Assembly: GCA_038231075.1 (NCBI GenBank)
Contig: JBBRMA010000015.1
Coordinates: forward strand, 35,904 to 99,903
Direction: 5' to 3'
Source: Myxococcales bacterium
GTDB taxonomy: Bacteria > Myxococcota > Myxococcia > Myxococcales > 40CM-4-68-19
Length of the DNA: 64,000 nucleotides
A program made the position numbers and the translations under genes. Below the pieces are notes generated by a model that made no database searches, was not told the DNA's origin, and saw nothing but the letters and a program-made list of their open reading frames with translations. Every line of letters starts with the position of its first letter. Position 1 is the stretch's first letter. Below, one piece after another: positions 355 to 45,529 of the stretch.

Positions 355-2355
355 CTAATGCACCGGTCCCGGCGCCTCGTCCCGCGGCGACGCGCTGGAG
401 GCGTCCATCGCGCGAAGCACGGCCGCCCGCAGGCGATCGCTCGCCAGCGAAGCTCCATATTCCGAGAGATGATCGTTGTCGGCGTAGAGGATTCGATCGC
501 CGTCGATGAAGCGGCCGCGGTCATCGCCTCTCAGATAGAGATCGGTGACCTCCACCAACTCGGCGTTCGAGAGCTTCTTGACGACCGTGGCGGCGAGCGC
601 ATTGCCCGCCCTCCACTCGTCGGGCGAACCGATGGGAAGGGTCGGTTGCAGCGAGCCGCGAGCTCGCAGCTCGGCGGCGATGTGCAGCGCGTTCCGGCCC
701 CCATAGAACATCACCGGCGGTTGGGAAACGACGACCATCCGCGTCCCGAGCTTGCCCAGCATCGAGACGAACTCGGTCAAGCGGGCCTCATTGAGCTCCC
801 AGACGTCCCAGCGGACCAAGAGGAGGATCAGGCGCGGCTTCCACTCCTGGAGAAAGCGCAATCGGGCCGCGTCGAAGTCGTATTTCTGATCAGCGGTGAA
901 GTGCGTGGTGGCACGACGCTCGGGCTGTGGCGAGAAGACGGCGGGCGTGCCGTCGGCGCCATAGAACGAGACCGTCAGGCGCTGCTCTTTGCAGATGGCG
1001 TCGACGATGCTCGACCACATCAGCGCGTGAGAGTCCCCGATCACCACCACTTGCGGGACGGGGGGGCCATATCGTTTGATGATCCCTCCCGTCTTGTACG
1101 CATCCGAGGTCAAGTGTTCACGCAGCGGAGCGACGAGCCCCACCGTCCCTTCGTCGACGACACCCGCCCACGGTTTTTGCACCGGGATGGTGTCGTACTT
1201 CCGGCCATTCCACTCGACGGGAGCAAATCCCCCCAGGTCATAGCGGTGCGTGCCAAAGTAATCAAAGGCCGAGACCGCCAGCACTGATCCCACCGCGGCA
1301 GAGACATAGGGAATCCAAAGCCGCTCCGTGCGCCCGATTCTCTCGACCAGGTGATAGGAGAGCAACCCTAGCGCGAAGACAAGGGCGGCGACGGCCGGGA
1401 GGGGGACAACCGCCGGGGAGATGGTGCGCGCGGCAGCGACCAGGACGATCACGGGCCAGTGCCAGAGATAGAGTGAGTAGGACGCCTTTCCGAGATAGAC
1501 AATCACCGGATTGGAGAGCAAGAACCCTGGCGCGGGTGGAAGCTGCTCGCCGAAAGCAATGATCGCAGCCGCCGAGACCACGGGCAGCAGCGTGGCATAC
1601 CCTGGATAGGTATGCGCTCCATTGATGAGGAGACAAGAGGCGGCGATGCCGGCGATTCCGGCGAGGAAGAGGAGGGGCCCGAAGCGCCAGGATTGCCACC
1701 TGGAAGGTGACTTCGAGCGATGAATCGCAAGCACGCAACCGAACCCCAGTTCCCAGGCGCGCGAGGGCAACAGGTAGAACGCTGCGGGCGGGTGCCGGTG
1801 CGACAGGTAGAGGCAGAGCGCCAGGCTCGAGAGCGTCGCGGCGCAAAGCAGCGGCTGAAGCTGGCGGCGCGCCAGCCGATGGATCAGATAGAGAGAAACC
1901 GGATAGAGGAGATAGAACTGCTCCTCCACCGAGAGCGACCACATGTGTAAGAGAGGTTGCTCGTGGGCCTGCGGGCCCCAATAGTTCCCCGCGGCCTGCC
2001 AGAAGAACAAATTCGCCCAGGACAACATCGACGCTGCGCCTTGCCGGCCAAGGTTCTTCAGCTCCGAGGCGAGCAAGAGCAGACGGCCGGCGGCGAGCGT
2101 GCAGAGGAGCATGGTGGCGAGCGCAGGCACCAGCCGGCGGATGCGGCGCAGCCAGAAGGCGCGGAGCGTGAAGGTGCCGGTCTCGAGGTCCTTGATGAGA
2201 ATCGAGGTGATCAAGAAGCCGGAGATGACGAAGAAGACGTCGACGCCGACGAAGCCACCCGACATCCACGGGACGCCGAGGTGGAAGAGGATCACAGGGA
2301 GCACGGCGATTGCGCGCAGCCCGTCGATCTCGGGTCGGTAGTTGATCTTCGACAT
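355..2355 (-). CDS. AT3 acyltransferase fused to a C-terminal SGNH-like domain (OafA/OatA-type polysaccharide O-acetyltransferase)
   Basis: 666 aa. N-terminal 'EIDGLRAIAVLPVILFHL...FFVISGFLIT' AT3 signature and about 10 hydrophobic helices. The C-terminal ~300 aa soluble part includes 'VVVIGDSHA', resembling SGNH block I. Confidence 0.85.
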   Translation of the reverse strand: MSKINYRPEIDGLRAIAVLPVILFHLGVPWMSGGFVGVDVFFVISGFLITSILIKDLETGTFTLRAFWLRRIRRLVPALATMLLCTLAAGRLLLLASELKNLGRQGAASMLSWANLFFWQAAGNYWGPQAHEQPLLHMWSLSVEEQFYLLYPVSLYLIHRLARRQLQPLLCAATLSSLALCLYLSHRHPPAAFYLLPSRAWELGFGCVLAIHRSKSPSRWQSWRFGPLLFLAGIAGIAASCLLINGAHTYPGYATLLPVVSAAAIIAFGEQLPPAPGFLLSNPVIVYLGKASYSLYLWHWPVIVLVAAARTISPAVVPLPAVAALVFALGLLSYHLVERIGRTERLWIPYVSAAVGSVLAVSAFDYFGTHRYDLGGFAPVEWNGRKYDTIPVQKPWAGVVDEGTVGLVAPLREHLTSDAYKTGGIIKRYGPPVPQVVVIGDSHALMWSSIVDAICKEQRLTVSFYGADGTPAVFSPQPERRATTHFTADQKYDFDAARLRFLQEWKPRLILLLVRWDVWELNEARLTEFVSMLGKLGTRMVVVSQPPVMFYGGRNALHIAAELRARGSLQPTLPIGSPDEWRAGNALAATVVKKLSNAELVEVTDLYLRGDDRGRFIDGDRILYADNDHLSEYGASLASDRLRAAVLRAMDASSASPRDEAPGPVH

Positions 2356-2359
2356 CGGG

Positions 2360-5077
2360 CTACCTCGCTCCGACCAGGGTCACGACGCTCGTCGGCGGGA
2401 GGGTGGCCGTGAAGCGACCTTGCGCGATCTCGATCGGCGCCTGCGGGCCCAGGTTCTGCGAGGCGGTCGTCAGCCAGGGCACGACCCGGCTCGCCGTCGC
2501 GCCTTCCAAGCTCACGGACAACTCAACCTCGGCGCCTGACTCATTGATGGCCACGACGACGAAGGCGTTGGGCGCCAGGCCCTTATAGGCGGAGATCAAG
2601 ACGTCGGGCGCGCCGCCCGTGGCCCCGATGCGCACGAAACCGGGGCGGATGAACTTGCTGTAGTTGCCTAGAGTATAGAGTCGCTTTGGTAGTGAGCCGT
2701 CCTTGTTGATCAGGCCTTCGTTGTTCTTGTTGTTGCTGAACAGCCACCAATAGTGCCATGCGCTCGCGGAGCCCGTGACGATCGCGGCGTGGATCCACTT
2801 CGCAACGCGCACGCCGTTCTCGATGTCGGTGCTCGGGCCGTCAAAGCTCGCCATCTCCGTCTGCCAGAGCGGCTTGCCCTTGGGGAGGGGATGGTTGACG
2901 ACCTCGTTGTCGTATTGGTGCGTTCCAATGATATCGAGGTAACCGAGCGCCGCCGGATCGGCGAGGATGGCGCTCATATAGTCGATCTCTCTCCATAGAT
3001 TGTGCCAGCCCGACGGCTCCGGTGCCATCAGCTTGGGCCTGGGGTTCAGGACCGCCAGCTTCGGCCCCAGCACCTTGATGAAGTCGCGCATCTCGGAGGC
3101 GCTGTAGAGGCACATGTCATAGGCGCCCTTGGTGTCGTGGTCCGGCTCGTTCTGGACCGAGACGGCATACAGGTCCACGCCCGTGCGCGCCTTCAGCTGC
3201 AGGCCGAAGGCAGCGAGCAGCGTCGCCCATTCTTCACGGGCCGCGGGCCGCAGGCCGCCCGAGCTCTCCTTGCCGGTGGTCTTCCAGGCCTCGTTCGGCG
3301 ACCAGGGCGAGCCCCAGACCCTTGCGCCGCGCGCGGCGGCCTTGGCGGCATTGCCCCAGGCGTCGCGTCCGTATTGCCCCTCCGACTCGATCACCACCCG
3401 AAGCAGCGAAAGCCCGATCCCCTTGGAGGGGCTGAAGAACAGGTCCGCCTGCGCGTCGTCGAAGAGGCCGTGGAATGCATCGGAGGCGCCGAAGCCGTCG
3501 ATGGTCTGGTGGAGGTCGGCAAAGTCCAGGCGAAGGTCGGCGCGCGTGCGCGGCGCGGCCTCGCCGCCCTGGCTCGTCGCCAGCATTCTCAGGGGAACGG
3601 TCTCGACCAGGGCCTCGCTCAGTATTGAAGCGGGAGGATCGGGCGGGCCGAGGCGATAGCGAACGCGATAGACTCTTGCTTCAGTCGTCGCCGCTCGCAA
3701 CTCGGCCGTCTCGGCTTGCCAGAGCCTGCGGGCGAGGCCGATTGAGAGCTCGTGAAAGCTGCCCGGATCGGTCTCCGCTGCTGCGCTCTTCACGAGATTC
3801 CAAAGCAGCCCCGAATTTCCAAAGGCCTTGTTGTAGGCAGCAAGGCTCACGCGCGCCTCACCGCCCGGCAGCGCCCAGCGCGCTTCCCAAAGCTCGAAGA
3901 GCCCCGGCGTGGGATAGGCGAACGTAGGGTAGGAAGCAAAGGGCCATTCCAACCTCCAGCCGGCGAGGCGCGAGATGGCGCGGCTCGCCGGCGGGGGCAG
4001 GCGGCTGACCAGCCCGGGCGTCTCATTGGCCAGGAACATGACGCTGCTGACGAGCAGTTGGCACACCAGCAGGCCGATCCCGAGCGGATGAAGCAGGCTG
4101 GCGGCAGGCGCGGGCGATGGCTCTCGCGGGCTGTCGGGCGGGCCCTGTTTCGCAGTGAGTATTCCCATCCGCCGACCGAGCGATGACCAATCAATCAAGC
4201 AGACATAGACGGGAATCAAGGTGGTGAACCAGATGTGGAGGAGCAACCCATTGCCGAGGTGAAAACCAATTCCAATCAACGCCAACCAGGGCCGTGGCCG
4301 GCGGAACAAGACGATCAAGAGGAAGCCGATCTCGAAGGCGATGACACTGACTCCAAAGGCCGCCAGCATCCAGGAGGGCAACAGATCGGCCCGCAGTGGA
4401 GGCTCTGCGCCGGGAACGAAGAGGGTCAATTCGAACCACTTGAGCCAGAGGACGTGGCGCAGGTTGTCGGCAGAAGCCCAGCCACCGGTGAACGTCTTGA
4501 GGAGCTTTGCAACCCCGGGCGTCAAGTAAAGCAATCCGAGCAGGAGCCAGACATAGCGAAGGGTAAAGAGCGCGGCAAACGATTGGATGGGCGCCTGACC
4601 CTCGGGCGCCTTGGTCCTTCGGAGCGAGTCGACCGAGAGGAGCTGGCCCGAAGGGCCCGCGGCCAAGAGCGCGAGGAACCAGATGACGTGATGGAAATTG
4701 TCGATCTTGCCCTGGTTCTCGGGCAGGCCGAAGAGATAGGTGGAGAGGACGAAGGCGAGGGTGAGCGAGGTCCTGGTAAAGAGCCCGATCAGCCCCAGGA
4801 AGACGAGCACCAGGTTCAAGAGCGCGAGCGCCTTGGCCAGCCCCGGGTTGCCGAGGATTTCGTAGGGGATGAGTTGATAGTACGAGATCGGCGCCCAAAC
4901 CCGGCGGGGAAGCCCCGGCAGGATCTCGAGCACCCAGCCCAGGTTGCGCAGGGCCCAAGGCAGGACGACCGCCCCGATGAACACGATCCGGAAGAGCCCG
5001 AGGTTGAGTGCCCATCCTCGCGGCGAGGTCGCCCGCTCGTCGGCGCGGAACCACGAGGCCAGCGTCGTCAGCCGCAT
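2360..5077 (-). CDS. fusion protein: N-terminal HTTM-like polytopic membrane domain + linker + C-terminal glycoside hydrolase family 30 domain
   Basis: 905 aa. The N-terminal ~300 aa (about 4190-5077) is multi-TM with 'LGLFRIVFIG', 'NFHHVIWFLALLAAGPSGQLLSVDSL' and 'CLIDW', resembling HTTM / vitamin-K carboxylase-like domains. The C-terminal ~390 aa (2360 to ~3545) has GH30 hallmarks: 'IDGFGASD', the 'SVQNEPD' acid/base motif and the 'WQTEMAS' nucleophile motif. A purine-rich RBS (GGAAGGA) lies upstream of the ATG at 5077. Confidence 0.85.
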   Translation of the reverse strand: MRLTTLASWFRADERATSPRGWALNLGLFRIVFIGAVVLPWALRNLGWVLEILPGLPRRVWAPISYYQLIPYEILGNPGLAKALALLNLVLVFLGLIGLFTRTSLTLAFVLSTYLFGLPENQGKIDNFHHVIWFLALLAAGPSGQLLSVDSLRRTKAPEGQAPIQSFAALFTLRYVWLLLGLLYLTPGVAKLLKTFTGGWASADNLRHVLWLKWFELTLFVPGAEPPLRADLLPSWMLAAFGVSVIAFEIGFLLIVLFRRPRPWLALIGIGFHLGNGLLLHIWFTTLIPVYVCLIDWSSLGRRMGILTAKQGPPDSPREPSPAPAASLLHPLGIGLLVCQLLVSSVMFLANETPGLVSRLPPPASRAISRLAGWRLEWPFASYPTFAYPTPGLFELWEARWALPGGEARVSLAAYNKAFGNSGLLWNLVKSAAAETDPGSFHELSIGLARRLWQAETAELRAATTEARVYRVRYRLGPPDPPASILSEALVETVPLRMLATSQGGEAAPRTRADLRLDFADLHQTIDGFGASDAFHGLFDDAQADLFFSPSKGIGLSLLRVVIESEGQYGRDAWGNAAKAAARGARVWGSPWSPNEAWKTTGKESSGGLRPAAREEWATLLAAFGLQLKARTGVDLYAVSVQNEPDHDTKGAYDMCLYSASEMRDFIKVLGPKLAVLNPRPKLMAPEPSGWHNLWREIDYMSAILADPAALGYLDIIGTHQYDNEVVNHPLPKGKPLWQTEMASFDGPSTDIENGVRVAKWIHAAIVTGSASAWHYWWLFSNNKNNEGLINKDGSLPKRLYTLGNYSKFIRPGFVRIGATGGAPDVLISAYKGLAPNAFVVVAINESGAEVELSVSLEGATASRVVPWLTTASQNLGPQAPIEIAQGRFTATLPPTSVVTLVGAR

Positions 5078-5161: not shown

Positions 5162-6313
5162 CTATTGATAGATCTTTTCCATCGCCGCGGCCCACTGCAT
5201 GCGCAGCACCTCCTGGCCGGCCGAGTTGGGATGGACGTCGCCCGAGGGAATCAAGTCGGTGCGGTTGAGAAAGGCCGCCCAGAGGTCGGGGCCGCGGACC
5301 ACTTGCGGGTACTTGGTGTAGAGCGCGTCGATCTGGGCGTTGAGGGCCGGGCCCAGGGTCAGGCGCTGGTCCGACCAGGGCATGTGCGGGACCACCGGGA
5401 TCTTGCCGGCGGCGATCACCTTGGTGATCAAGCTCTCCATCTGGAACTGATCTGATTTGTCGTTGGTGCCGTAGTCGAGCGCGACGAAGCGGCCCGGGAA
5501 GTTGGCCATGGTGGCGTCGATGGCCGCCACCGCGTTCACGGTGCTGGTCCCGCCGATGGCGGCGTCGATGATCGCCGGGTAATAGGAGGGCTTGTCGGTG
5601 TGCACCAGCTTCGGCAGGTCGCTGAAGGCGCGCGGCAGCGAGATGAAGGTGATCGAGTCACCCAGGAAGAGCCATGAGTCCGAGGGTCCCGAGGGAGTGC
5701 CGTGCACGTCGAGGTCGATGCCGACGTTGTTCGGGTCGCTCGCCTTGGTGACTTTCATGCGGACCCAGTTGGCTCCATTCAGCGCCACGAGGTGGTGCCT
5801 GCCGCTGTTGACGTTGCCGGTGACGGTCGCCGCCTGCGTCCAGCCGGTGGCAGGAGCAGGGCCACCTCCGGCCGCGCTGTTGATCTCGATGGTGTAGTCC
5901 TCCGGCAGGTTCATGAAGGGTGCCGGAGTGTTGATGAAATCCTCGGTGCGGTAGGCGTACCAGGCGACCAGCACGCTCTGCCGCGACGCCGCCGACGCGC
6001 CCGACAGATCGTAGGCGAGCCAGGCGGGCAGCGAGGCCGAGACCCAGCTGGTGGCGGGGTTCCCATCGTTCGCTTTCTCGGGACCCGCCGAGGTGTTGCT
6101 GCTGCTGGAGGCAAACGCTGGGACGCCCAGGCTGAGGATGGGCATCGGCGGCGTCGCGTTCACGCAGGCCCCGGCGGCGTTGCAGGTGCTCGCGGCGCCG
6201 GTGCAGTCGGCGTTGCTGTGGCAGCCGGCCGACTTGGTTCCACCGCCGCAGCCGGTGAGGAGCGCGAACAGCGCGCCGAGCGAGGCGAGGTACCGCAGGT
6301 CATTGGCATCCAC
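5162..6313 (-). CDS. lipoprotein with discoidin (F5/8 type C)-like carbohydrate-binding domain and SGNH/GDSL hydrolase domain
   Basis: 383 aa. Lipobox 'LLTGC'. 'NDGNPATSWVS...WLAYDL' is discoidin-like. SGNH blocks are present: 'FLGDSIT' (I), 'DYGTNDK' (III) and 'GDVHPN' (V). Confidence 0.8.
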   Translation of the reverse strand: MDANDLRYLASLGALFALLTGCGGGTKSAGCHSNADCTGAASTCNAAGACVNATPPMPILSLGVPAFASSSSNTSAGPEKANDGNPATSWVSASLPAWLAYDLSGASAASRQSVLVAWYAYRTEDFINTPAPFMNLPEDYTIEINSAAGGGPAPATGWTQAATVTGNVNSGRHHLVALNGANWVRMKVTKASDPNNVGIDLDVHGTPSGPSDSWLFLGDSITFISLPRAFSDLPKLVHTDKPSYYPAIIDAAIGGTSTVNAVAAIDATMANFPGRFVALDYGTNDKSDQFQMESLITKVIAAGKIPVVPHMPWSDQRLTLGPALNAQIDALYTKYPQVVRGPDLWAAFLNRTDLIPSGDVHPNSAGQEVLRMQWAAAMEKIYQ

Positions 6314-6364: not shown

Positions 6365-7975
6365 TCACCTTCCCGAGGCCTGCGCCTGCACGGCTTCATC
6401 TCGCCGGGCGTCGCCGGGCCGCGGCCTGCGTTTTCGCGCTGGCCAGGCGCCGCTCGCCACCGCCAGCTTGCCCACCAGCGCCAGCGCGGGGCAGACGGTG
6501 AACACCGCGGTCCACGAGCTCTGCCCCATGTCGCCGTAGATGGAGTTGATGTACGCGATCAGCGTGCCGATGGCCCAGAGCGCGATGGCGCGGTCGAGCG
6601 GGACTTCCGAGGCGCGGTAGGCGCGGGCGGCGAGGAAGACGCCCATCACGAGGCAGCACCACATCAGGCTGAAGCCGATCAGGCCCGCGTAGGAGAGGAA
6701 GCCGAGCACGCTGTTGTGGGGCACCAGCCGGTAGAGCGGGAACGCGGTCGAGACGTCGGGCAGCTTGTAGTCTTCGCGGTACTCGTGGCCCAGGCCGCTG
6801 CCGAGCAGCGGGTGTTCGATGATGTTGTCGACCAGGTTCAGGTTCTCCATGTCGCGCCACATGGTCGAGCCGTCCGACTTGGAGTCGAGGATCGAGCGCA
6901 CCGTCTTCACCGGCGCAAAGACGCCACCGCCGCCCGAGTTCCAGCCGATGGCCAGGTAGATCGCGAACACCGGCAAGCCTGCGAGCAGGGTCCGCGCCAC
7001 CGCCCGCCGCAGCCGGGTCCAGGGGCTGATGGCGTAGAAGGCGATGGCGATCAGCGCCACCTCGACCCAGGCGACGCGCCGGTGGTTGGCCCACATGCCG
7101 ACGCAGATGATTCCCGCGCAGACGAGCAGCAGGGCGAGGAACCCGCGCCGGCCCTTGCCCACCCGCTCGTTGATCAGCGCCAGGATGAGTCCGATGGCTC
7201 CGGCGAAGAGCATGGAGTCGCCGTGGGTGGTGGCGTAGCCGAGCATGGTCTCGCCCTTGGGGGGAGTGACCGTCTTCTGGATGTAGAGCGCCAAAAGCGA
7301 CTTGACCACGGCGGCCCCGATCATGACCTTGGCGATGGCCGCGTGGTCCCTTGGCCCCCGCAGCGCCGCGTGGCAGACGAAGAAGAGCAGCGGCACGTAG
7401 AGCAGCTTGTGGATCTGCAGCAGCGAATTTCCGAAGTTGCCGCCGCGCGCGATCCCGTAGCCCCAGACCCAGAGCGTCCCGGCCAGGGTGGCCAGGACCG
7501 CGAACGCCATCACGTTGGCCGTCTGCACCTGTCCAGAGGTGTCGAGCGTCGAGCCCCGACTCCGCCGCCAGGCCAGCGCTGCCACCAGGAAGAGGACCAG
7601 CATGTCGACGCCGGTCAGGACCAGCGCGCGCGGGCCGAACACGTCGTTCCACTTCGACAGCATCAGCTGGCCGACGATGTAGATCGGCGACCTCCAGGCG
7701 CCGTTGGCCGGGATCTCGTTCGGGCTCTCGAGGGTGAGCCCGAGGAAGATGAGCAAGAGCAGCGTGTCGCGGACCGGGCGCTTCCAGATCACCCAGAGGG
7801 CGGCAAACCCCAGGGGCACCGCGGCTCCCGCCGCCACGTTGCCGTTGCCGAGGATGGTGAGCGTGATGGTCGCGACGCCCATCAACGTGCAGAGGGCGGC
7901 GAGCCCGCGCCAGCTCGCCGGCGCGGGGACTGCCGAGAGGTCCTGATCGGGCGAGGCTGAAGCGAGCGAGCCCAT
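6365..7975 (-). CDS. Wzy-type polysaccharide polymerase / O-antigen ligase-family membrane protein
   Basis: 536 aa with at least 10 hydrophobic helices. It has a 'PHNSVLGFLSYAGLIGF' motif like the Wzy_C (O-antigen ligase) domain signature and a large loop before it. Confidence 0.75.
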   Translation of the reverse strand: MGSLASASPDQDLSAVPAPASWRGLAALCTLMGVATITLTILGNGNVAAGAAVPLGFAALWVIWKRPVRDTLLLLIFLGLTLESPNEIPANGAWRSPIYIVGQLMLSKWNDVFGPRALVLTGVDMLVLFLVAALAWRRSRGSTLDTSGQVQTANVMAFAVLATLAGTLWVWGYGIARGGNFGNSLLQIHKLLYVPLLFFVCHAALRGPRDHAAIAKVMIGAAVVKSLLALYIQKTVTPPKGETMLGYATTHGDSMLFAGAIGLILALINERVGKGRRGFLALLLVCAGIICVGMWANHRRVAWVEVALIAIAFYAISPWTRLRRAVARTLLAGLPVFAIYLAIGWNSGGGGVFAPVKTVRSILDSKSDGSTMWRDMENLNLVDNIIEHPLLGSGLGHEYREDYKLPDVSTAFPLYRLVPHNSVLGFLSYAGLIGFSLMWCCLVMGVFLAARAYRASEVPLDRAIALWAIGTLIAYINSIYGDMGQSSWTAVFTVCPALALVGKLAVASGAWPARKRRPRPGDARRDEAVQAQASGR

Positions 7976-7980
7976 GGCGG

Positions 7981-8151
7981 TCAGAAGAGCTTGAAGTAGA
8001 GGAAGCGGAGGGCGAGCAGATAGAAGAAGTTGAAGGCGATGATGTAGAAGACGACCTTCTTGAAGGCCTTGGCGGGGCTCCGCTCCCGCGCCGCCCAGAT
8101 GGGGATGGCGAAGGTGGCAAAGACGATCGACAGCAGCAGCATCTTCTGCAT
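7981..8151 (-). CDS. 56-aa two-helix membrane mini-protein (below the ORF-track length cut-off), 5 nt upstream of the Wzy-like gene
   Basis: Hand translation gives MQKMLLLSIVFATFAIPIWAARERSPAKAFKKVVFYIIAFNFFYLLALRFLYFKLF*. Two hydrophobic segments flank a basic loop. Third codon positions are almost all G/C, as in the real genes here. The stop is at 7981-7983 and the Wzy ATG at 7975. Confidence 0.5.
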   Translation of the reverse strand: MQKMLLLSIVFATFAIPIWAARERSPAKAFKKVVFYIIAFNFFYLLALRFLYFKLF

Positions 8152-8222
8152 CGGACGGGGCTTACTCTAGCACCGAGCCGGGCCCGGCGCGGAGTGGTGG
8201 GCCGGCGCCGCCGTGCTACTCT

Positions 8223-9449
8223 TTGGCCTCCTACCGAGGGACCCTCTTGCAGACCCAGCCATCGGGGAACGCACCGGCAGCGCGCCCGCGCGGCGACTTC
8301 AACATTCCCTCCCTGGACGGGCTGCGGGCCGTCTCCTTCCTGATCGTCTTTCTCGCGCACACCACCGCCAGCGTGCGGGTGCCCGGCGCGTTCGGCGTCA
8401 CCGTCTTTTTCTTCCTCAGCGGCTACCTGATCACGTCCTTGCTGCGGCTGGAGCACACCAGCAGCGGGCGCGTGAGCCTGCGCGACTTCTACCTGCGCCG
8501 CGTCCTGCGCATCCTGCCGCCATTCTACGCGGTGCTGCTGCTGGCGGCGCTGCTCACGCTCTCTGGCGCGCTGCCCGGCACGCTCAGCACCTGGCCGATG
8601 GTCGCCCAGATCGGGCACGTGACCAACTACTGGAACATCGTCAACGGGGCAGAGGGGCAGCCGGCGGGCACCGGCGTCTACTGGTCGCTGGCGGTCGAGG
8701 AGCACTTCTACCTGGTCTTTCCCTTTCTCTTCATCCTGCTGCAGCGGGTCTTCAAGGATCGCTTCCGTGCCCAAGGTGCGGTGCTGCTCGCGCTCTGCGG
8801 CCTGGTGCTGGCCTGGCGGTTCGCGCTGGTGTTCGGGCTTGGCGCCACCCCCGAGCGGACCGGCCTGGCGAGCGACACCCGGGTCGACTCCATCCTCTTC
8901 GGATGCGCGCTCGCGGTGATGGCGAACCCCATGCTCGACAAGCAGCGGCTGCCCGCGTGGCTCTGGCGCTGGGTGCTGTTGCCGCTCGGCATGGGGCTCT
9001 TGCTGGTCTCGTTTCTCTACCGCGCGCCCTGGTTCCGGGAGTCGCTGCGCTACACGGTGCAGGGGATGGGCCTCATCCCGCTCTTCGTGGTGTCGATGCG
9101 CGAGCCCGACTTCCTCCCTTTCCGGCTGCTGAATCTCAAGTGGGTGAAGCACGTCGGGCTGCTCAGCTACTCGCTCTACCTGATCCACCAGGTGGTCATC
9201 TTCACGGTGCATCCGCTGGTGCCGGGGCTGCATCCGCTCTGGCGCGGCGCGCTCGAGCTGACCGTCGCGCTGCTGCTGGCCGAGGTCGTCCATCGGCTGA
9301 TCGAGAAGCCCTGCGCGCGCTTGCGCCGCCGGCTGGCGCACGCCAACTGGATCAGCCCCAGAGCCACTTCGGACTCTCCCCCCGAGGCCGCTGCCGCACT
9401 GGCCAGCAAGAGCGAGGAAGGCCCGGCCGGGCTCTTGAAGGTGCCATGA
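8223..9449 (+). CDS. AT3 family membrane O-acyltransferase
   Basis: 408 aa. 'IPSLDGLRAVSFLIVFLAH...FFFLSGYLITS' and a C-terminal 'SYSLYLIHQ' are AT3 motifs. About 10 TM helices. Confidence 0.85.
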   Translation: MASYRGTLLQTQPSGNAPAARPRGDFNIPSLDGLRAVSFLIVFLAHTTASVRVPGAFGVTVFFFLSGYLITSLLRLEHTSSGRVSLRDFYLRRVLRILPPFYAVLLLAALLTLSGALPGTLSTWPMVAQIGHVTNYWNIVNGAEGQPAGTGVYWSLAVEEHFYLVFPFLFILLQRVFKDRFRAQGAVLLALCGLVLAWRFALVFGLGATPERTGLASDTRVDSILFGCALAVMANPMLDKQRLPAWLWRWVLLPLGMGLLLVSFLYRAPWFRESLRYTVQGMGLIPLFVVSMREPDFLPFRLLNLKWVKHVGLLSYSLYLIHQVVIFTVHPLVPGLHPLWRGALELTVALLLAEVVHRLIEKPCARLRRRLAHANWISPRATSDSPPEAAAALASKSEEGPAGLLKVP

Positions 9450-9991
9450 AGTTCCGCGAGACCGAGCTTGCGGGCGCGTTCGTCGTCGCGCTCGAGCCGC
9501 ACGCCGACGAGCGTGGCTTCTTCGCCCGCACTTTCTGCGAGGAGGAGTTCGCCGCCCGCGGCTTGCCCACGCGCTTCCCGCAGGCCAACCTCTCGCGAAA
9601 CCTGCGCCGGGCGACTCTGCGCGGGCTGCACTACAACGCCGCCCCGCACCGCGAGTCCAAGCTGGTTCGCTGCACCGCCGGCGCCATCTGGGATGCCATC
9701 GTTGACCTGCGGCCGGCCTCGCCCACCTATCTCCAGTCGCTCGGCGTCGAGCTGACGGCGGAGAGCGGCGACGCGCTCTTCGTGCCGGAGGGCTTCGCGC
9801 ACGGCTTCATCACCCTGCGCGACCAGACCGACGTCGAATATCTGATGGGCAGCTCGTACGTGGCGGGCGCCGCGCGGGGCGTGCGCTGGGACGACGGTCG
9901 CCTCGGGATCCGCTGGCCGCTTCCGCCCGAGGTCATCTCCCTGCGCGACCGCGAGCTTCCCCTCTTCGACGCGGCGGTCTTCGATGGTTGA
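9446..9991 (+). CDS. rmlC: dTDP-4-dehydrorhamnose 3,5-epimerase family (RmlC-like cupin) sugar epimerase
   Basis: 181 aa. 'DERGFF', 'RGLHYN', 'KLVRCTAGAIWDAIVDLR' and 'FVPEGFAHGF' match the RmlC cupin signature. The ATG at 9446 overlaps the upstream stop (ATGA). Family-level call only: no rmlABD genes are in the window. Confidence 0.85.
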   Translation: MKFRETELAGAFVVALEPHADERGFFARTFCEEEFAARGLPTRFPQANLSRNLRRATLRGLHYNAAPHRESKLVRCTAGAIWDAIVDLRPASPTYLQSLGVELTAESGDALFVPEGFAHGFITLRDQTDVEYLMGSSYVAGAARGVRWDDGRLGIRWPLPPEVISLRDRELPLFDAAVFDG

Positions 9992-11255
9992 CGGCGACGA
10001 GCTGCACGCGCTGGTTGCGCGGCTCCATCCCCTCTGTCGGAGCATCACCGGCGACGGCGTGCGCCAGACGCTGCGCGTGCTCTCCGAGCTGGCCCCGATC
10101 CAGCTGACCGAGGTCGCATCGGGCACCGAGGTGCTCGACTGGGTGGTGCCCCCGGAGTGGAACGTGCGCGAGGCCTTCATCGCCAACGCGCAGGGCGAGC
10201 GGGTGGTCGACCTGCGCGACTCCAGCCTGCACCTCGTCAGCTACAGCGTTCCGGTGCAGGCGCGCATGTCGCTCGCCGAGCTGCGGCCGCACCTGCACAC
10301 GCTGCCCGACCGGCCCGATTGGATTCCGTACCGCACGAGCTATTACAAAGAGGCGTGGGGCTTCTGCCTCTCCCAGCGCCAGCTCGATGCGCTGCCGGAG
10401 GGCGACTATCAAGTCCGGATCGACTCCACCCTGGCGCCCGGGCACCTGACCTACGGCGAGATCGTGCTGCCCGGCGACACCGAAGAGGAGATCCTCATCT
10501 CCTCCCACGTCTGCCACCCGTCGCTGGCCGACGACAACCTCTCGGGAATGGTGATCGCCGCGGCGCTCGCCCGCCAGCTGGCCAAGGAGCGGAGGCGCTA
10601 CACGCTGCGCTTCCTCTTCGCGCCCGGGACCATCGGAGCCATCACCTGGCTCGCGCGGAACCGCGAGCGCGTGGGCCGCATCCGCCACGGCCTGACCCTC
10701 ACCTGCCTGGGCGACTCGCATCCATTCACGTACAAGAAGACCGCGCTGGGCGCGGCCGAGATCGATCGCGCGGCGGCGCACGTGCTCGCGGCCTCTGGGC
10801 TGCCGCACCAGCTCATCGACTTCTTTCCGTTTGGATATGACGAGCGGCAATACAACTCGCCGGGCTTCCGCCTGCCGGTGGGCTCGTTGATGCGCGGCCG
10901 CCACGGACAATTTCCCGAGTACCACACCTCCGCGGACAACCCTTCGTTCGTCGCGCCGGCGCGGCTGGCGGAGTCGTTCGGCGTCCTCGAGCAGCTGCTC
11001 GCGCTGCTCGACGCCAACCGGCGCTACCGGAACCTCGCGCCGTACGGCGAGCCGCAGCTGGGGCGGCGCGGGCTCTACGACGCGCTCGGCGGCAAGGACA
11101 TCGCCGACCTGCAGCTGGCGATGCTCTGGATGCTCAACCTGAGCGACGGGGACCACTCGCTGCTCGAGATCGCCGAGCGATCGAAGATCGAGTTCACCAC
11201 CCTGCGCACGGCGGCCGAGCTGCTCGAGCGCCACGGTCTGCTCGGGCCGGGCTGA
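9984..11255 (+). CDS. aminopeptidase-like domain protein of polysaccharide loci (COG4310; DUF2172/DUF4910-like)
   Basis: 423 aa. 'ISSHVCHPSLADDNLSG' and the overall layout resemble the COG4310 family. The start overlaps the RmlC-like stop by 8 nt. Confidence 0.7.
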   Translation: MVDGDELHALVARLHPLCRSITGDGVRQTLRVLSELAPIQLTEVASGTEVLDWVVPPEWNVREAFIANAQGERVVDLRDSSLHLVSYSVPVQARMSLAELRPHLHTLPDRPDWIPYRTSYYKEAWGFCLSQRQLDALPEGDYQVRIDSTLAPGHLTYGEIVLPGDTEEEILISSHVCHPSLADDNLSGMVIAAALARQLAKERRRYTLRFLFAPGTIGAITWLARNRERVGRIRHGLTLTCLGDSHPFTYKKTALGAAEIDRAAAHVLAASGLPHQLIDFFPFGYDERQYNSPGFRLPVGSLMRGRHGQFPEYHTSADNPSFVAPARLAESFGVLEQLLALLDANRRYRNLAPYGEPQLGRRGLYDALGGKDIADLQLAMLWMLNLSDGDHSLLEIAERSKIEFTTLRTAAELLERHGLLGPG

Positions 11256-11266
11256 CCAGGAGAGAC

Positions 11267-12157
11267 ATGGACGGCATCTTTCTCGATCCGGACTTGAGCG
11301 ACCACGAGAGGCGCGCACGGCTCTATCGGGGCGCCATCCTGCTCTTGTCGCCCTCGGCCGCCTCGCGCGAGCTGGTGGCCTTCGCGCGCGCGCTGACCGA
11401 GGAGGCGTTCGCCCCGCGCAATCCCGAGACGGCCCACTGCGAGCTGCCGGTCGAGGAGTATGCGCGCCTCCTCGCGGCGCTCAAGCCGCGCTTCATCCAC
11501 CACCCGCGCTGCAAGGAGCTGCTGCGCGAGATCTTGAAGTCCGCCGGCTGCGACGAGGCGCGCACCTACTTCGACGTCCCTCGCCTGCGCACCGCGGCGC
11601 CCGGGGATTACCTCAGCACCGGCATCGCCTATGCCTTCCATCCGCACCGCGACACCTGGTACTCGGCGCCGCAGTGCCAGATCAACTGGTGGATGCCGGT
11701 CTACCCGATGCGCCCCGAGAACGGGATGGCCTTCCACCCGCGCTACTGGACGCAGCCGCTCAAGAACAGCTCGCGCATCTACAACTATCGCAGGTGGAAT
11801 GCGGAGAATCGCTTCAATGCGGCGCAGCAGCTCAAGGTCGACACCCGGCCGCAGCCCAAGCCCGAGGAGCCGGTTGATTTGAACCCGAGCCTGCGCTTCG
11901 TGCCGCCGCCCGGCGGGCTGATCCTCTTCTCCGGCGCGCAGCTGCACTCGACCGTGCCGAACGGCACCGACCTGACCCGGTTCAGCATCGACTTTCGCAC
12001 CGTCAACCTCGACGACGTGCGCGCGCGGGAAGGGGCGCACAACATCGACTCCGCGTGCACCGGCACGAGCCTTGGCGACTTCCTCCGCGCCGCCGACTTC
12101 GAGCGCATCGAGCAGTCCGCGGTCGACCTCTACGACACGCCCGACCGCAGCGGCTGA
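11267..12157 (+). CDS. hypothetical protein, putative Fe(II)/2-oxoglutarate (PhyH-like) dioxygenase
   Basis: 296 aa. It has an 'FHPHRD' (HxD) motif and a distal 'LHSTVPNGTDLTRFSIDFR' (H..N....R) pattern, as in phytanoyl-CoA dioxygenase-like enzymes. Assignment by motif only. Confidence 0.55.
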   Translation: MDGIFLDPDLSDHERRARLYRGAILLLSPSAASRELVAFARALTEEAFAPRNPETAHCELPVEEYARLLAALKPRFIHHPRCKELLREILKSAGCDEARTYFDVPRLRTAAPGDYLSTGIAYAFHPHRDTWYSAPQCQINWWMPVYPMRPENGMAFHPRYWTQPLKNSSRIYNYRRWNAENRFNAAQQLKVDTRPQPKPEEPVDLNPSLRFVPPPGGLILFSGAQLHSTVPNGTDLTRFSIDFRTVNLDDVRAREGAHNIDSACTGTSLGDFLRAADFERIEQSAVDLYDTPDRSG

Positions 12158-19590: not shown

Positions 19591-20640
19591 ATGAAGACGC
19601 TCATCCTGGCCGCCGGGCGCTTCGGGCGCACGGTGTCCGATGACGTCGCGGCAGGGCGCGAGCCAAGGCTCGACGTCCACGAGCTGCAGGCGGCCCTCGG
19701 CGCCGATCTGCTCGACTTCCGCGACGTGGACGCCTCCTCCCTTCTCGCCGTCCGCGCCGCCCGGACCCTGAGCGCCTCGGCGGGGCTGGCAGCGCTTGGC
19801 GCGCAGGTCAGCGCGGGCTACGACGCGGTCCTGACGACGGGCGAGGACATCGGCATCCCGCTCGCGACGCTGCTCACCGGACGGCGCAAGCGGCCGGTCC
19901 ACACCATGATCGCGCACACCCTCAGCCCCTGGAAGAAGCGCCTCTTCGTCCAGGGCCTCGGGATGGGCAGCCGCATCGACCGCTTCCTCTGCTACGCCTC
20001 CTCGGAGGAGAAGCTGATGACCGGGCAGCTCGGCATCCCGGCCGCAAGAGTGCGGCGCATCGCCTACCACGCGGACGCCCGGTTCTTCCGACCCATGCCC
20101 GAGGTCAAGGTCGAGCCCGACCTGATCTGCAGCGCCGGCCAGCTGCTGCGCGACTACGACTGCCTGATCGAGGCCTGCCGCGAGCTGCCCGTGCGGGTGC
20201 GGATCGCTGCCGGCAGCCCATGGATCGACAAGGAGCTGCGCCCCGACAAGCCGCTGCCGCAGAACGTGGAGTGGCAGAAGTATCCCCGCTTCGAGCTGCG
20301 CGACCTCTATGCGCGAGCGGCGGTGGCGGTGGTGCCGATCGTCGAGAACGACTATCAGACGGGCATCTCCACCATTTTGGAGATGATGGCGATGGGCAAG
20401 TGCGTCATCGTCAGCCGCACCCGCGGCCAGACCGACACCATCATCGACGGGGTCAACGGGCTCTACGTGCCGCCCGGCGATCCGGTCGCGTTGCGCGCCA
20501 CCATCCGCCGCGTGCTCGATCATCCGGAGGAAGCGGCGCGCCTGGGCGAGGCCGCGCGCCGCTACGTGCTGGCCGAGGCCAGCCTCGAGCTCTTCGTCGC
20601 ACGCATCACCGAGACCATGCGGCAGGCCGCTAGGACCTGA
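19591..20640 (+). CDS. GT4 (GT-B fold) glycosyltransferase
   Basis: The start was trimmed to 'MKTLILAAG' (ATG at 19591). The C-terminal 'QTGISTILEMMAMGKCVIVS..G..D.I.DGVNG' is GT4-like. Confidence 0.8.
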   Translation: MKTLILAAGRFGRTVSDDVAAGREPRLDVHELQAALGADLLDFRDVDASSLLAVRAARTLSASAGLAALGAQVSAGYDAVLTTGEDIGIPLATLLTGRRKRPVHTMIAHTLSPWKKRLFVQGLGMGSRIDRFLCYASSEEKLMTGQLGIPAARVRRIAYHADARFFRPMPEVKVEPDLICSAGQLLRDYDCLIEACRELPVRVRIAAGSPWIDKELRPDKPLPQNVEWQKYPRFELRDLYARAAVAVVPIVENDYQTGISTILEMMAMGKCVIVSRTRGQTDTIIDGVNGLYVPPGDPVALRATIRRVLDHPEEAARLGEAARRYVLAEASLELFVARITETMRQAART

Positions 20641-22105: not shown

Positions 22106-22159
22106 CGGAGGCAGGAAGCCAGATTGCCGGAGGCTGGTCAATTGGATAGAGCTAGGAGG

Positions 22160-43897: not shown

Positions 43898-44009
43898 ACC
43901 GGATAATACCAGAATCGAGTCGCCAGATCGTGGGCCCGGGGGTGGGTGCCGTCGGGCAAAAGTCCGACCTCCGATCTGTGATTGAATCGAAAAGGAGGTC
44001 ATTGGACTA

Positions 44010-45425: not shown

Positions 45426-45490
45426 CCCTTCTTCAGGGGGCCGATGCAGGCCGGGCCTGCCCGGCGCGGGACCGCGGCTGCAAGAGGGTT

Positions 45491-45519
45491 TCCACAAGCA
45501 GCCGTCCATGGCATATAAT
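45491..45519 (+). promoter_or_regulatory. candidate sigma70-type promoter: TCCACA (-35), 17-nt spacer, perfect TATAAT (-10)
   Basis: Read directly. TATAAT at 45514-45519 lies only 10 nt before the ATG at 45530, in a locally AT-rich patch. No Shine-Dalgarno sequence is visible. Confidence 0.35.
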
Positions 45520-45529
45520 TGAACCAACG

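What the first reader, a model, noticed from the sequence alone, without database searches (positions are those of the whole stretch)
2360..5077. GH30 glycoside hydrolase fused to an HTTM-like (vitamin-K-carboxylase-type) polytopic membrane domain
Seen: a single 905-aa ORF.
- N-terminal ~300 aa: multi-pass membrane domain with 'LGLFRIVFIG', 'NFHHVIWFLALLAAGP..LLSVDSL' and 'IDW'.
- Middle: a ~200-aa linker.
- C-terminus: a complete GH30 domain with both catalytic Glu motifs ('NEP', 'TEM').

Established: GH30 enzymes are normally soluble secreted enzymes or lipoproteins. HTTM domains are poorly understood outside gamma-carboxylase and SdpB-type proteins.

Inference: the fusion tethers a glycanase at the inner membrane next to Wzy. 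It could be a chain-trimming or release enzyme coupled to an unknown membrane activity.
Basis: partly seen in the sequence, partly recalled or inferred. Interest (0 to 1): 0.72.

Follow-up and report, generated by a model that had tools for sequence, protein, structure and literature searches.

The report
Carboxylase-like membrane enzyme fused to glycanase
One gene in a bacterial slime-polysaccharide gene cluster joins a nine-helix membrane enzyme related to the human vitamin K-dependent carboxylase to a sugar-chain-cutting GH30 enzyme, a combination not found in any other sequence searched, which hints that this membrane enzyme family may work on polysaccharides.

Summary
Window 5077..2360 (- strand) is a real 905-aa gene with a polytopic N-terminal module and a complete C-terminal GH30 domain, with catalytic Glu644 (NEP) and Glu741 (TEM).

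Residues 1-~495 form one unit, a small bacterial family that resembles the whole human vitamin K-dependent carboxylase (GGCX).
- It has nine TM helices plus an extracytoplasmic domain.
- Foldseek finds GGCX only (probability 1.0, TM about 0.5).
- K191, E249 and N276 align with GGCX K218, D263 and N290.
- The true linker is about 15 aa.

Most relatives carry a cytoplasmic DCC thiol-oxidoreductase insert, which is cleanly deleted here. The nearest GH30 relative (75% identity) is a stand-alone gene with a lipoprotein-like signal sequence. The fusion therefore replaced a signal peptide and should put GH30 outside the cytoplasmic membrane.

The gene lies in a wzy / esterase / this gene / O-acetyltransferase operon within a large Wzy-type polysaccharide locus. 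No other HTTM-GH30 fusion was found, but one relative carries a C-terminal GH16.

Best reading: a membrane-tethered polysaccharide-trimming glycanase coupled to a probably active quinol-dependent enzyme of unknown substrate. It is known from a single assembly, and no function has been tested.

The parts
2360..5077 (-). Whole 905-aa gene: GGCX-like (HTTM superfamily) membrane module fused to GH30
   Evidence: Start supported by the RBS and by N-terminal alignment with relatives.
4163..5077 (-). aa 1-305: TM1-TM8, the HTTM core. K191, E249 and N276 align with GGCX K218, D263 and N290.
   Evidence: Pfam HTTM 22.7-24.3 bits. AF2 pLDDT mostly >90. hhalign to verified human GGCX. 41 invariant family columns.
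4103..4165 (-). aa 305-325: short basic cytoplasmic TM8-TM9 loop, the site where 21 of 25 aligned relatives carry a ~115-aa DCC1-like CxxC domain. That domain is cleanly absent here.
   Evidence: Alignments A1/A2. Pfam on A2 members. No DCC homolog in the window.
3593..4105 (-). aa 325-495: TM9 (325-352) plus a conserved extracytoplasmic alpha/beta domain (WPFxxYPTF, WEARW, VYRVRY).
   Evidence: Conserved in all family members. AF2 pLDDT ~90. Foldseek alignment to GGCX spans ~515 columns.
3548..3592 (-). aa ~496-510: the true inter-module linker (RMLATSQGGEAAPRT), low pLDDT
   Evidence: Relatives end at aa ~499-505. GH30 structures align from aa 513-514. Similarity to the stand-alone homolog P0028 starts at aa 507.
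2360..3547 (-). aa ~511-905: complete GH30 catalytic module, a (beta/alpha)8 barrel plus beta-sandwich side domain. Glu644 is in the NEP motif and Glu741 in the TEM motif.
   Evidence: phmmer to 5cxp, 4fmv, 3gtn, 1nof and others. Pfam PF14587 above cut-off. AF2 pLDDT >90.
355..2355 (-). Downstream operon partner: AT3 + SGNH acyltransferase (polysaccharide O-acetyltransferase type). Its start lies 4 nt after the fusion gene's stop.
   Evidence: Pfam. Junction sequence.
5162..6313 (-). Upstream operon partner: GDSL/SGNH esterase with an F5/8-type-C (galactose-binding-like) domain
   Evidence: Pfam.
6365..7975 (-). Wzy_C-type polymerase/ligase-like membrane protein, first gene of the same-strand run
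   Evidence: Pfam Wzy_C 34.3 bits, above the 31.7 cut-off.

Best explanation
This is a genuine evolutionary gene fusion encoding a bifunctional cytoplasmic-membrane protein of a Wzy-dependent exopolysaccharide (EPS) locus.

Shown:
[quoted passage not shown] It has nine TM helices and an extracytoplasmic domain after TM9.
- The family is conserved at the positions that align with the GGCX base Lys218 and its partners Asp263 and Asn290. Here these are K191, E249 and N276.
- The DCC thiol-oxidoreductase insert that most relatives carry in the TM8-TM9 loop is absent.
- aa ~511-905 are a complete GH30 (subfamily-8-like) glycanase with both catalytic glutamates. It lacks the Arg-Arg glucuronate-binding motif of canonical glucuronoxylanases.
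- Its closest relative (75% identity) is a stand-alone gene with a lipoprotein-type signal sequence.
- The two modules are joined by about 15 residues.

Inferred:
- The topology is N-terminus in, C-terminus out, as in GGCX. GH30 therefore sits on the outer face of the cytoplasmic membrane on a flexible tether, next to the Wzy polymerase and the acetylation and de-acetylation enzymes encoded in the same operon.
- There it cleaves the locus's own polymer (chain-length control, release, or clearing of mis-made polymer). Cluster-encoded glycanases such as PslG, BcsZ and ExoK are reported to play such roles in other systems (my knowledge, not checked here).
- The GGCX-like module is probably still an active quinol/O2-dependent enzyme acting on an unknown extracytoplasmic substrate, possibly the same glycan or its lipid-linked precursor. 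It is probably not a mere anchor.
For: Architecture:
- ORF and motifs.
- Family alignments show that aa 1-495 is one unit, with a DCC insertion in relatives.
- AF2 model of aa 1-505: pLDDT 88, pTM 0.88.
- Foldseek against PDB: the only matches with E <= 0.06 are 16 human GGCX chains; 15 have probability 1.00 and TMq 0.44-0.51 over ~500-530 columns.

Active site:
- hhalign of the family profile against human GGCX, whose sequence was verified identical to PDB 13ib_A. It aligns K191/K218, E249/D263, H273/H287 and N276/N290.
- K191 and E249 are invariant and N276 is nearly invariant across 25 family members.
- The roles of K218, D263 and N290 are taken from PMC12589487 and PMC13486548.
- The query keeps 94 of 103 family-conserved positions, which argues against decay to an inert anchor.

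Topology:
- GGCX has TM1-9 followed by a luminal domain.
- Basic residues cluster in the predicted cytoplasmic loops.
- The nearest GH30 relative has a lipoprotein-like signal, LFLLVLCC.
- A second lineage (P0015, P0153) has Ig-like and GH16 domains appended at the same C-terminal position.

GH30: full-length matches to GH30-8 structures with NEP and TE aligned.

Context:
- The operon has a 4-nt gene spacing, and the two terminator-like sites on the - strand between 5077 and 355 both lie inside the AT3-SGNH coding sequence, not between genes.
- The locus holds four AT3-domain genes (one fused to SGNH), four GT2, three GT4, one GT87, a pyruvyl transferase, Wzy, a Wza-like exporter and a GH44.
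- Several relatives of the membrane module also sit in polysaccharide clusters.
Against: - The fusion is a singleton. The protein occurs in one NCBI assembly only.
- No junction-spanning relative was found in the JGI metagenome scan, among 240 GH30 relatives, or in the 1.84-billion-representative search. The architecture is therefore not independently confirmed.
- Pfam HTTM is below the gathering threshold for this protein.
- A family profile does not hit GGCX by sequence in PDB. The hhalign probability is only 23-32%, so the residue equivalences rest on a weak alignment that is backed by fold.
- A family-conserved His is Asn127 here.
- With the DCC domain gone and no DCC gene in the window, there is no evident way to recycle an oxidised quinone.
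- The genomic contexts of relatives are mixed, and about half are not glycan-related.
- The full-length model gives no confident interdomain packing (pTM 0.52).
- No substrate is known for either module.
Confidence: 0.6

Rival explanations
1. The membrane module is only an anchor. A secreted EPS glycanase was captured onto a polytopic protein whose own chemistry is irrelevant or lost, and only GH30 matters.
For: - The DCC redox domain present in 21 of 25 aligned relatives is deleted, and no DCC gene is in the window.
- The family-conserved His127 is Asn.
- Other cluster-encoded glycanases such as PslG are simply membrane-anchored (my knowledge).
- The full-length model shows no interdomain contacts.
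Against: - 94 of 103 family-conserved positions are retained, including K191, E249 and N276.
- DCC-less family members of ~465-526 aa are common and equally conserved: P0006, P0017, P0148, P0156 and others.
- A nine-TM enzyme plus a folded domain is an extravagant anchor when one helix would do.
Confidence: 0.15
2. GH30 is a nutritional xylanase or hemicellulase for plant polymers. Its location in the EPS locus is incidental.
For: - The best structural relatives are xylan-active GH30-8 enzymes: 5cxp, 4fmv, 3gtn and AcXbh30A 7n6h.
- JGI names its relatives glucuronoarabinoxylan endo-xylanase.
- Most related GH30 loci (69 of 80) show no polysaccharide-synthesis genes within 4 kb.
- The single large-contig relative examined (P0031) is not in a typical EPS cluster.
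Against: - An enzyme tethered to the cytoplasmic membrane by ~15 residues cannot reach insoluble plant xylan.
- It is translationally coupled to an O-acetyltransferase inside a wzy operon.
- It lacks the Arg-Arg glucuronate-recognition motif of canonical GH30-8. The query reads WWLFSNNKNNEGL where XynC reads WWYIRRSYGP.
- 11 of 80 related GH30 loci do have GT2, AT3 or pyruvyl-transferase genes close by.
Confidence: 0.15
3. The fusion is an artefact: a mis-assembly that joins two loci, or a sequencing error that merges two adjacent genes.
For: - Only one assembly carries the protein.
- No second example turned up in any search.
- GC3 varies along the gene, from 0.71 to 0.90 per 100 codons.
Against: - The end of the membrane-family homology and the start of the mature GH30 homology are about 10-15 residues apart and in frame.
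- There is no remnant of a stop codon, an intergenic region, a start codon or the ~40-residue signal and linker seen in the stand-alone homolog. An indel between neighbouring genes cannot produce that.
- A random chimeric join would have to hit both domain boundaries precisely and in frame.
- The gene fits its operon, with an RBS upstream and 4-nt coupling downstream.
- A parallel GH16 fusion exists at the same position in a relative.
Confidence: 0.07

Closest known systems
[quoted passage not shown]
   Same: - Same overall fold for aa 1-505: nine TM helices and a domain on the non-cytoplasmic side after TM9.
- The N-terminal motif NLGLFRIVF corresponds to GGCX SLAVFRFLF.
- The aligned Lys/acid/Asn triad is K191/E249/N276 against K218/D263/N290.
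   Different: - About 15% identity, with no sequence-level hit from the family profile.
- The extracytoplasmic domain is much smaller (~150 aa against ~380 aa).
- The conserved animal carboxylase motif (GGCX ~384-415, per PMC13486548) was not recognisable.
- No Gla-type substrate is evident.
- It carries a glycoside hydrolase.
Bacterial HTTM + DCC1-like proteins, annotated 'DCC family thiol-disulfide oxidoreductase YuxK' (P0001-P0025)
   Same: - These are the true family of the N-terminal module: 45-66% identity and 41 invariant residues.
- The same TM9 and C-terminal domain are present.
- A related HTTM+DCC protein with a DUF5819 partner has been noted to resemble whole GGCX (bioRxiv 10.64898/2026.08.19.745780).
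   Different: - The query lacks the DCC domain, as do P0006, P0017 and P0148.
- The query has a 400-aa GH30 appended.
- No member of the family has a known function.
P0015 / P0153 (metagenomic HTTM-DCC proteins; P0015 has C-terminal Ig-like + GH16, P0153 has the Ig-like domain and an uncharacterised tail)
   Same: Same membrane family (52-53% identity). In P0015 a glycoside hydrolase is appended after the C-terminal domain, at the same position as here.
   Different: - The hydrolase family is different (GH16).
- An Ig-like/DUF1573 spacer is present.
- The DCC domain is retained.
- P0015 lies on a 3.3-kb contig, so its context is unknown.
Non-canonical GH30 subfamily 8 enzymes (CaXyn30A 5cxp, CpXyn30A 4fmv, AcXbh30A 7n6h) and XynC (3gtn)
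   Same: Full-length alignment, both catalytic Glu, and a barrel plus side beta-sandwich.
   Different: - Those enzymes are soluble and secreted. The query has no signal peptide of its own and is fused to a polytopic protein.
- The beta8-alpha8 loop lacks the RR motif of XynC and carries an NNKNNE insertion.
- The substrate is unknown.
Cluster-encoded EPS glycanases (PslG, BcsZ, ExoK; from my own knowledge, not tested here)
   Same: A glycoside hydrolase encoded inside the biosynthetic operon and placed outside the cytoplasmic membrane. This is a functional analogy.
   Different: The GH families differ. None of them is fused to a GGCX-like enzyme.
MloH (malonomycin) and giant-virus GGCX-like epoxidase-desaturase fusions
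   Same: These are precedents for HTTM enzymes that act on non-Gla substrates and for fusion of the module to a second enzyme.
   Different: The partners (a DUF5819-like region, a sterol desaturase) and the pathways are different. Neither has a link to glycans.

Membership tests
Glycoside hydrolase family 30 (subfamily 8-like) | Full-length similarity to the GH30 catalytic module: (beta/alpha)8 barrel plus obligate beta-sandwich side domain | tested here: met
   phmmer matches 12 GH30-8 structures over 380-390 residues at E 8e-56 to 9e-40. AF2 pLDDT is >90 with strands 511-532 and 815-904. PF14587 scores 34.9 bits against a cut-off of 27.
Glycoside hydrolase family 30 (subfamily 8-like) | Two catalytic glutamates: acid/base in NEP after beta4 and nucleophile in TE after beta7 | tested here: met
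   E644 (vsvqNEPD) and E741 (lwqTEm) align with the NEPD and TE motifs of 5cxp, 4fmv, 4qaw and 3gtn. The assignment of these Glu as catalytic comes from my knowledge of GH30.
Canonical GH30-8 glucuronoxylanase (XynC/XynA type) | Arg-Arg motif in the beta8-alpha8 loop that binds the glucuronate side chain | tested here: not met
   XynC reads 'wwyi----rrsygp' where the query reads 'wwlfsnnknnegl'. It should not be filed as a glucuronoxylanase.
HTTM / GGCX superfamily | Pfam HTTM (PF05090) above the gathering score | tested here: inconclusive
   The query scores 22.7-24.3 bits against 27.7. Of 25 family members, 19 hit at E<=0.01, and relative P0148 scores 34.2 bits.
HTTM / GGCX superfamily | GGCX-like fold: TM bundle plus a domain after the last TM helix | tested here: met
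   Foldseek against PDB returns only GGCX chains, 15 of them at probability 1.00 (a 16th at 0.99), with TMq 0.44-0.51 for those 15. The next hit has E 0.4. The model has pLDDT 88.
HTTM / GGCX superfamily | Catalytic base Lys (GGCX K218) with its D263 and N290 partners | tested here: met
   K191, E249 and N276 align with them in hhalign and are invariant or nearly invariant in the family. Caveat: the alignment probability is only 23-32%.
HTTM / GGCX superfamily | Quinol-dependent epoxidase or carboxylase activity | not testable with these tools
   This needs biochemistry.
Animal-type gamma-glutamyl carboxylase | Conserved carboxylase motif (GGCX ~384-415) and a propeptide-binding luminal domain | tested here: inconclusive
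   hhalign has no confidence beyond TM9. The extracytoplasmic domain is ~150 aa and carries its own motif, WPFxxYPTF.
HTTM-DCC ('YuxK-like') fusion proteins | DCC1-like CxxC domain in the TM8-TM9 loop | tested here: not met
   It is absent from the query, and there is no DCC homolog in the 64-kb window.
EPS-operon glycanase (functional class) | Encoded within and co-oriented with polysaccharide polymerisation and tailoring genes | tested here: met
   The run is wzy / GDSL esterase / this gene / AT3-SGNH, with a 4-nt gap before the last gene. The surrounding locus is described.
EPS-operon glycanase (functional class) | Hydrolyses the cognate polymer, and its loss alters EPS yield or chain length | not testable with these tools
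   This needs enzyme assays and genetics.

The most novel reading that the evidence does not exclude
The GGCX-like module is a quinol/O2-driven enzyme whose substrate is the exopolysaccharide itself or its undecaprenyl-linked repeat unit. It could, for example, abstract an activated C-H next to a uronate or amino-acid substituent, leading to carboxylation or epimerisation. The fused GH30, and the GH16 in a sister lineage, would then process the same polymer. That would be the first carbohydrate-directed member of the vitamin K-dependent carboxylase superfamily.
Probability: 0.12. Interest if true: 0.85.

Novelty: new variant of a known kind. Interest (0 to 1): 0.55.

Why it matters
Bacterial HTTM/GGCX-like proteins are widespread, but almost none has a known substrate. 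The few characterised or proposed ones act on peptides or peptide-like intermediates (SdpB, MloH) or possibly lipids (giant viruses).

A member that is physically fused to a glycanase inside an EPS operon gives a concrete, testable lead that part of this superfamily works on cell-surface glycans. Two further observations support that lead: a sister lineage is fused to GH16, and several relatives lie in polysaccharide clusters.

It also adds a new way of positioning an EPS-trimming hydrolase at the membrane. Because the architecture is a singleton from one assembly, its value is as a hypothesis generator rather than an established system.

Tried and rejected
1. Sequence-only link to GGCX. phmmer of aa 1-300 and a profile of the family against PDB gave no GGCX hit. 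The link needed fold search and hhalign.
2. Other examples of the fusion.
   - The full-length phmmer over 1.84 billion representatives gave no hit covering both halves. The clustering can hide members behind single-domain representatives, so this is not proof of absence.
   - P0149 (912 aa, GH30 at the same offset) has an Ig-like N-terminus, not HTTM.
   - A TM count of all ~240 retrieved GH30 relatives found none that is polytopic.
   - The junction-spanning metagenome scan found none.
   - The profile search found only 32 family proteins.
3. The word-index search with the full protein missed all close GH30 relatives, so it could not be used to judge uniqueness.
4. Conserved gene partners of the membrane family. 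No partner is shared across loci. The large lectin and galactose-oxidase-like neighbours in L005 are not conserved elsewhere.
5. Full-length AF2 to see how the domains dock. The C-domain collapsed (pLDDT <50) with the mixed alignment and pTM was 0.52, so nothing can be said about docking.
6. DUF5819 match for aa 320-505: none.
7. P0293, a 68%-identical fragment, looks like a garbled or frameshifted gene call and was dropped.
8. The source organism was not identified. The window is not in the genome collection scanned, and the best relative there (65% identity) is a Dormiibacterota MAG.
Full report
**1. Observation**

Window 2360..5077 on the minus strand is a single 905-codon ATG ORF.
- GC3 is 0.84, typical of real genes in this 67% GC window.
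- A GGAAGGA Shine-Dalgarno-like element lies about 10 nt upstream of the start.
NEP is at aa 643-645 and TEM at aa 740-742.
- Both halves have strong homologs: E 9e-193 for the N-terminal half and E 1e-199 for the C-terminal half.

The ORF is therefore a gene and not a high-GC artefact. Pfam gives Glyco_hydr_30_2 at 34.9 bits (cut-off 27), HTTM at 22.7 bits (cut-off 27.7) and the GH30 beta-sandwich at 17.8 bits (cut-off 22).

**2. The C-terminal module**

Residues ~511-905 align end to end with twelve solved GH30 subfamily-8 structures. These include CaXyn30A 5cxp (E 8e-56), AcXbh30A 7n6h, CpXyn30A 4fmv, Xyn30D 4qaw, XynC 3gtn and XynA 1nof.
- The NEPD and TE motifs that hold the acid/base and the nucleophile align exactly, at E644 and E741.
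- Where XynC has the WWYIRRSYGP loop, the query has WWLFSNNKNNEGL. The Arg-Arg pair in that loop binds the glucuronate branch, by my knowledge of GH30-8.
- It is therefore a complete and probably active GH30, but not a canonical glucuronoxylanase. Its substrate cannot be read from sequence.
- AF2 models this part at pLDDT >90.

The nearest relative, P0028, is 75% identical. It is a stand-alone gene on contig L001 whose longer reading frame starts with a lipoprotein-like signal (…LFLLVLCC…) followed by a ~35-residue linker. Similarity to the query begins in that linker at query aa 507. Other relatives (45-57% identity) are secreted single- or multi-domain proteins.

**3.

Alignment with the 25 closest relatives shows that residues 1-~495 are a single conserved unit.
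- An HTTM-like core of eight helices comes first.
- A loop follows, then one more TM helix (aa 325-352).
- A conserved ~145-residue alpha/beta domain comes last, with the motifs WPFxxYPTF, WEARW and VYRVRY.
- In 21 of 25 aligned relatives the loop carries a ~115-residue DCC1-like CxxC thiol-disulfide oxidoreductase domain.
- In the query, as in P0006, P0017 and P0148, that domain is cleanly missing. The query reads KQGP|PDSPREP… where P0001 reads KKGP[LLVLYDGDCQLCRR…CALV]PPKPRRD….
- No DCC homolog exists elsewhere in the window.
- Relatives end at the equivalent of query aa ~499-505, so the real linker to GH30 is about 15 residues, not 200.

**4. Relation to GGCX**

An AF2 model of aa 1-505 built with the family alignment is confident (pLDDT 88, pTM 0.88). 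Foldseek against the PDB returns only human vitamin K-dependent gamma-carboxylase chains: 16 with E <= 0.06, 15 of them at probability 1.00 with TMq 0.44-0.51 over roughly 500-530 aligned columns. The next hit has E 0.4.

I wrote the human GGCX sequence from memory and verified it as identical over all 758 residues to PDB 13ib_A. hhalign of the family profile against it (E 5e-4 to 9e-4, probability only 23-32%) gives these equivalences:

| Query | Human GGCX |
|---|---|
| NLGLFRIVF | SLAVFRFLF |
| PGVAK191L | AGVKK218L |
| AFE249IGF | LLD263LSA |
| GFH273LGN276G | YFH287CMN290S |
| helix at aa 325-352 | TM9 |

[quoted passage not shown] D263 assists it, and D263E keeps activity. N290 hydrogen-bonds the quinol (PMC12589487; PMC13486548).
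- K191 and E249 are invariant and N276 is nearly invariant in the family.
- The query retains 94 of 103 positions conserved in at least 90% of the other members. Three of the nine misses are simply the absent DCC domain. The substitutions are I28L, F66Y, L113T, H127N, G244S and F494V.
- H127N is the only striking one. In the weak hhalign alignment that column falls on GGCX H160, a substrate-side residue.
- I conclude that the module is a conserved GGCX-like enzyme that is probably still functional. The residue equivalences rest on a low-probability alignment supported by fold.

**5. Topology**

GGCX has TM1-9 followed by a luminal domain. Transferring that to the query gives N-terminus in, the K191 side out, the TM8-TM9 loop (the DCC site) in, and the C-domain out.
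- Basic residues cluster in the predicted cytoplasmic segments: RRTK at 153-156, FRRPRP at 258-263 and GRRMGILTAKQ at 301-311.
- The GH30 ancestor was an exported lipoprotein-type enzyme.
- P0015 carries Ig-like and GH16 domains after the same C-domain. These are typically extracytoplasmic.

All of this points to GH30 lying outside the cytoplasmic membrane. It is an inference and was not tested.

**6. Is the fusion real?**

The membrane-family homology ends, and the mature GH30 homology starts, within about 10-15 in-frame residues. There is no trace of a stop codon, a spacer, a start codon or a signal peptide. An indel between adjacent genes cannot produce this, and a random chimeric join is unlikely to. 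The gene is also embedded properly in its operon.

The architecture is nevertheless a singleton.
- The exact protein is on record once, from an NCBI source on a 104,653-nt contig.
- None of the top 150 hits in the 1.84-billion-representative search spans both halves.
- None of ~240 GH30 relatives is polytopic.
- None of 80 metagenome loci found with a junction-spanning query covers the junction.
- The profile search finds only 32 family proteins. Among them only P0015 has a hydrolase, a GH16.

I put the artefact explanation at about 7%.

**7. Context**

The gene sits in a same-strand run:

| Coordinates (- strand) | Gene |
|---|---|
| 7975-6365 | Wzy_C protein |
| 6313-5162 | GDSL esterase with an F5/8-type-C domain |
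| 5077-2360 | the fusion gene |
| 2355-355 | AT3-SGNH acyltransferase, starting 4 nt after the fusion gene's stop |

The scan found two terminator-like sites on this strand between 5077 and 355, both inside the AT3-SGNH coding sequence and not between genes.

The surrounding 60 kb is a large Wzy-type polysaccharide locus. It contains:
- two further AT3 acyltransferases, four GT2, three GT4 and one GT87;
- a pyruvyl transferase;
- rmlC-like and nucleotide-sugar enzymes, and a UDP-glucose dehydrogenase;
- a Wza-like exporter and a GH44.

Relatives of the membrane module have mixed contexts.
- P0007 and P0002 lie in a syntenic polysaccharide cluster directly upstream of a Poly_export gene.
- P0006 lies next to AT3 and GT2 genes.
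- P0023 lies next to GT4 genes.
- L005 is flanked by giant lectin and galactose-oxidase-like proteins.
- Other relatives are in unrelated neighbourhoods.
- In a crude tblastn panel, 13 of ~29 loci have GT2 or GT4 genes within 8 kb. This is suggestive, but there is no background control.
- Of 80 loci with related GH30 genes, 11 have GT2, AT3 or pyruvyl-transferase genes within 4 kb.

**8. Mechanism**

Shown: the domain composition, the conserved catalytic-type residues in both modules, the operon position, and the loss of DCC.

Inferred:
- GH30 is tethered on the outer face of the cytoplasmic membrane and trims or releases the locus's own polymer beside Wzy and the acetylation and de-acetylation enzymes. 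This is analogous to PslG, BcsZ and ExoK (my knowledge).
- The GGCX-like module uses a membrane quinol and O2 to act on an unknown extracytoplasmic substrate.

It is open whether that substrate is the glycan. Precedents for non-Gla substrates and for fusion to a second enzyme exist in MloH and the giant-virus epoxidase-desaturases.

Rival readings are an anchor-only membrane module (0.15), a nutritional xylanase (0.15) and an artefact (0.07). The field for rival explanations weighs each.

**9. Novelty and score**

Both domain families are known, and HTTM-DCC proteins have been noticed to resemble GGCX. The new points are:
- the HTTM-GH30 architecture;
- the recognition that the 'linker' is the GGCX-like TM9 plus outer domain;
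- the parallel GH16 fusion;
- the recurring polysaccharide context.

This is a new variant of a known kind, resting on one assembly and on no functional data. Interest is 0.55.

Noticed in passing
window 32286-34388 (+): A 700-aa GH44 glycoside hydrolase (Pfam 234 bits) lies in the same polysaccharide locus, downstream of the Wza-like exporter (28908-29546) and of two ORFs with no Pfam match (29553-30785, 30782-32269). The locus therefore encodes a second glycanase.
   Followed up: no
window 355-5077 versus neighbours: The fusion gene and the AT3-SGNH gene have lower GC3 (0.84 and 0.82) than nearly all neighbouring genes (0.90-0.94). This may mean the gene pair arrived more recently.
   Followed up: no
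window aa 127 of the fusion protein (nt ~4697-4699): The family-conserved His of the D-H-F-H-H motif is Asn here (DNFHH). A weak hhalign alignment places this column on GGCX His160, a residue that contacts the Glu substrate.
   Followed up: partly
P0015 (L029 343-3336) and P0153: P0015, a relative of the membrane module, carries DCC plus a C-terminal DUF1573/Ig-like domain and a GH16 domain. This is an independent glycanase fusion at the same position. P0153 (873 aa) shows DCC and the Ig-like domain but gave no GH16 hit.
   Followed up: partly
L028 and L030 (P0007, P0002): Two contigs share a conserved polysaccharide cluster. The gene order is: unknown 442-aa protein, aldo-keto reductase, ATP-grasp-like protein, Lys/Orn-oxygenase-like flavoprotein, NTP-transferase, epimerase, HTTM-DCC, Poly_export. 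The ATP-grasp and flavoprotein pair also recurs next to P0006 in L025.
   Followed up: partly
L024 4146-5723 and L002 4232-5809: The closest relative of the membrane module (65-66% identity) is followed by a 525-aa reverse transcriptase (RVT_1) gene, probably a group II intron or a retron-type element.
   Followed up: no
window 9984-11255 (+) and 11267-12157 (+): A DUF4910/DUF2172/HTH_47 aminopeptidase-like protein and a weak PhyH-type dioxygenase follow an rmlC-like gene. A second PhyH is at 54051-54902. Oxygenases are unusual inside a polysaccharide locus.
   Followed up: no
window 27528-28883 (+): A di-haem cytochrome c peroxidase (CCP_MauG) gene lies directly upstream of the Wza-like polysaccharide export gene.
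   Followed up: no
window 39113-44002 (-), 45389-52711 (+), 44010-45425 (+), 52754-53980 (+): Very long ORFs (1629 and 2440 aa) were not analysed. Either could be a chance ORF, which this high-GC DNA produces readily. The two BNR/Sortilin-repeat proteins flank the 2440-aa ORF.
   Followed up: no
window 6396-9341 (-), 8213-9991 (+), 20630-22696 (-) / 21596-23149 (+): High GC produces long overlapping ORFs. The 981-aa ORF at 6396-9341 has no Pfam hit and is probably spurious. The rmlC and aldo-keto reductase domains occupy only the 3' parts of their listed ORFs, so the true starts lie further in.
   Followed up: no
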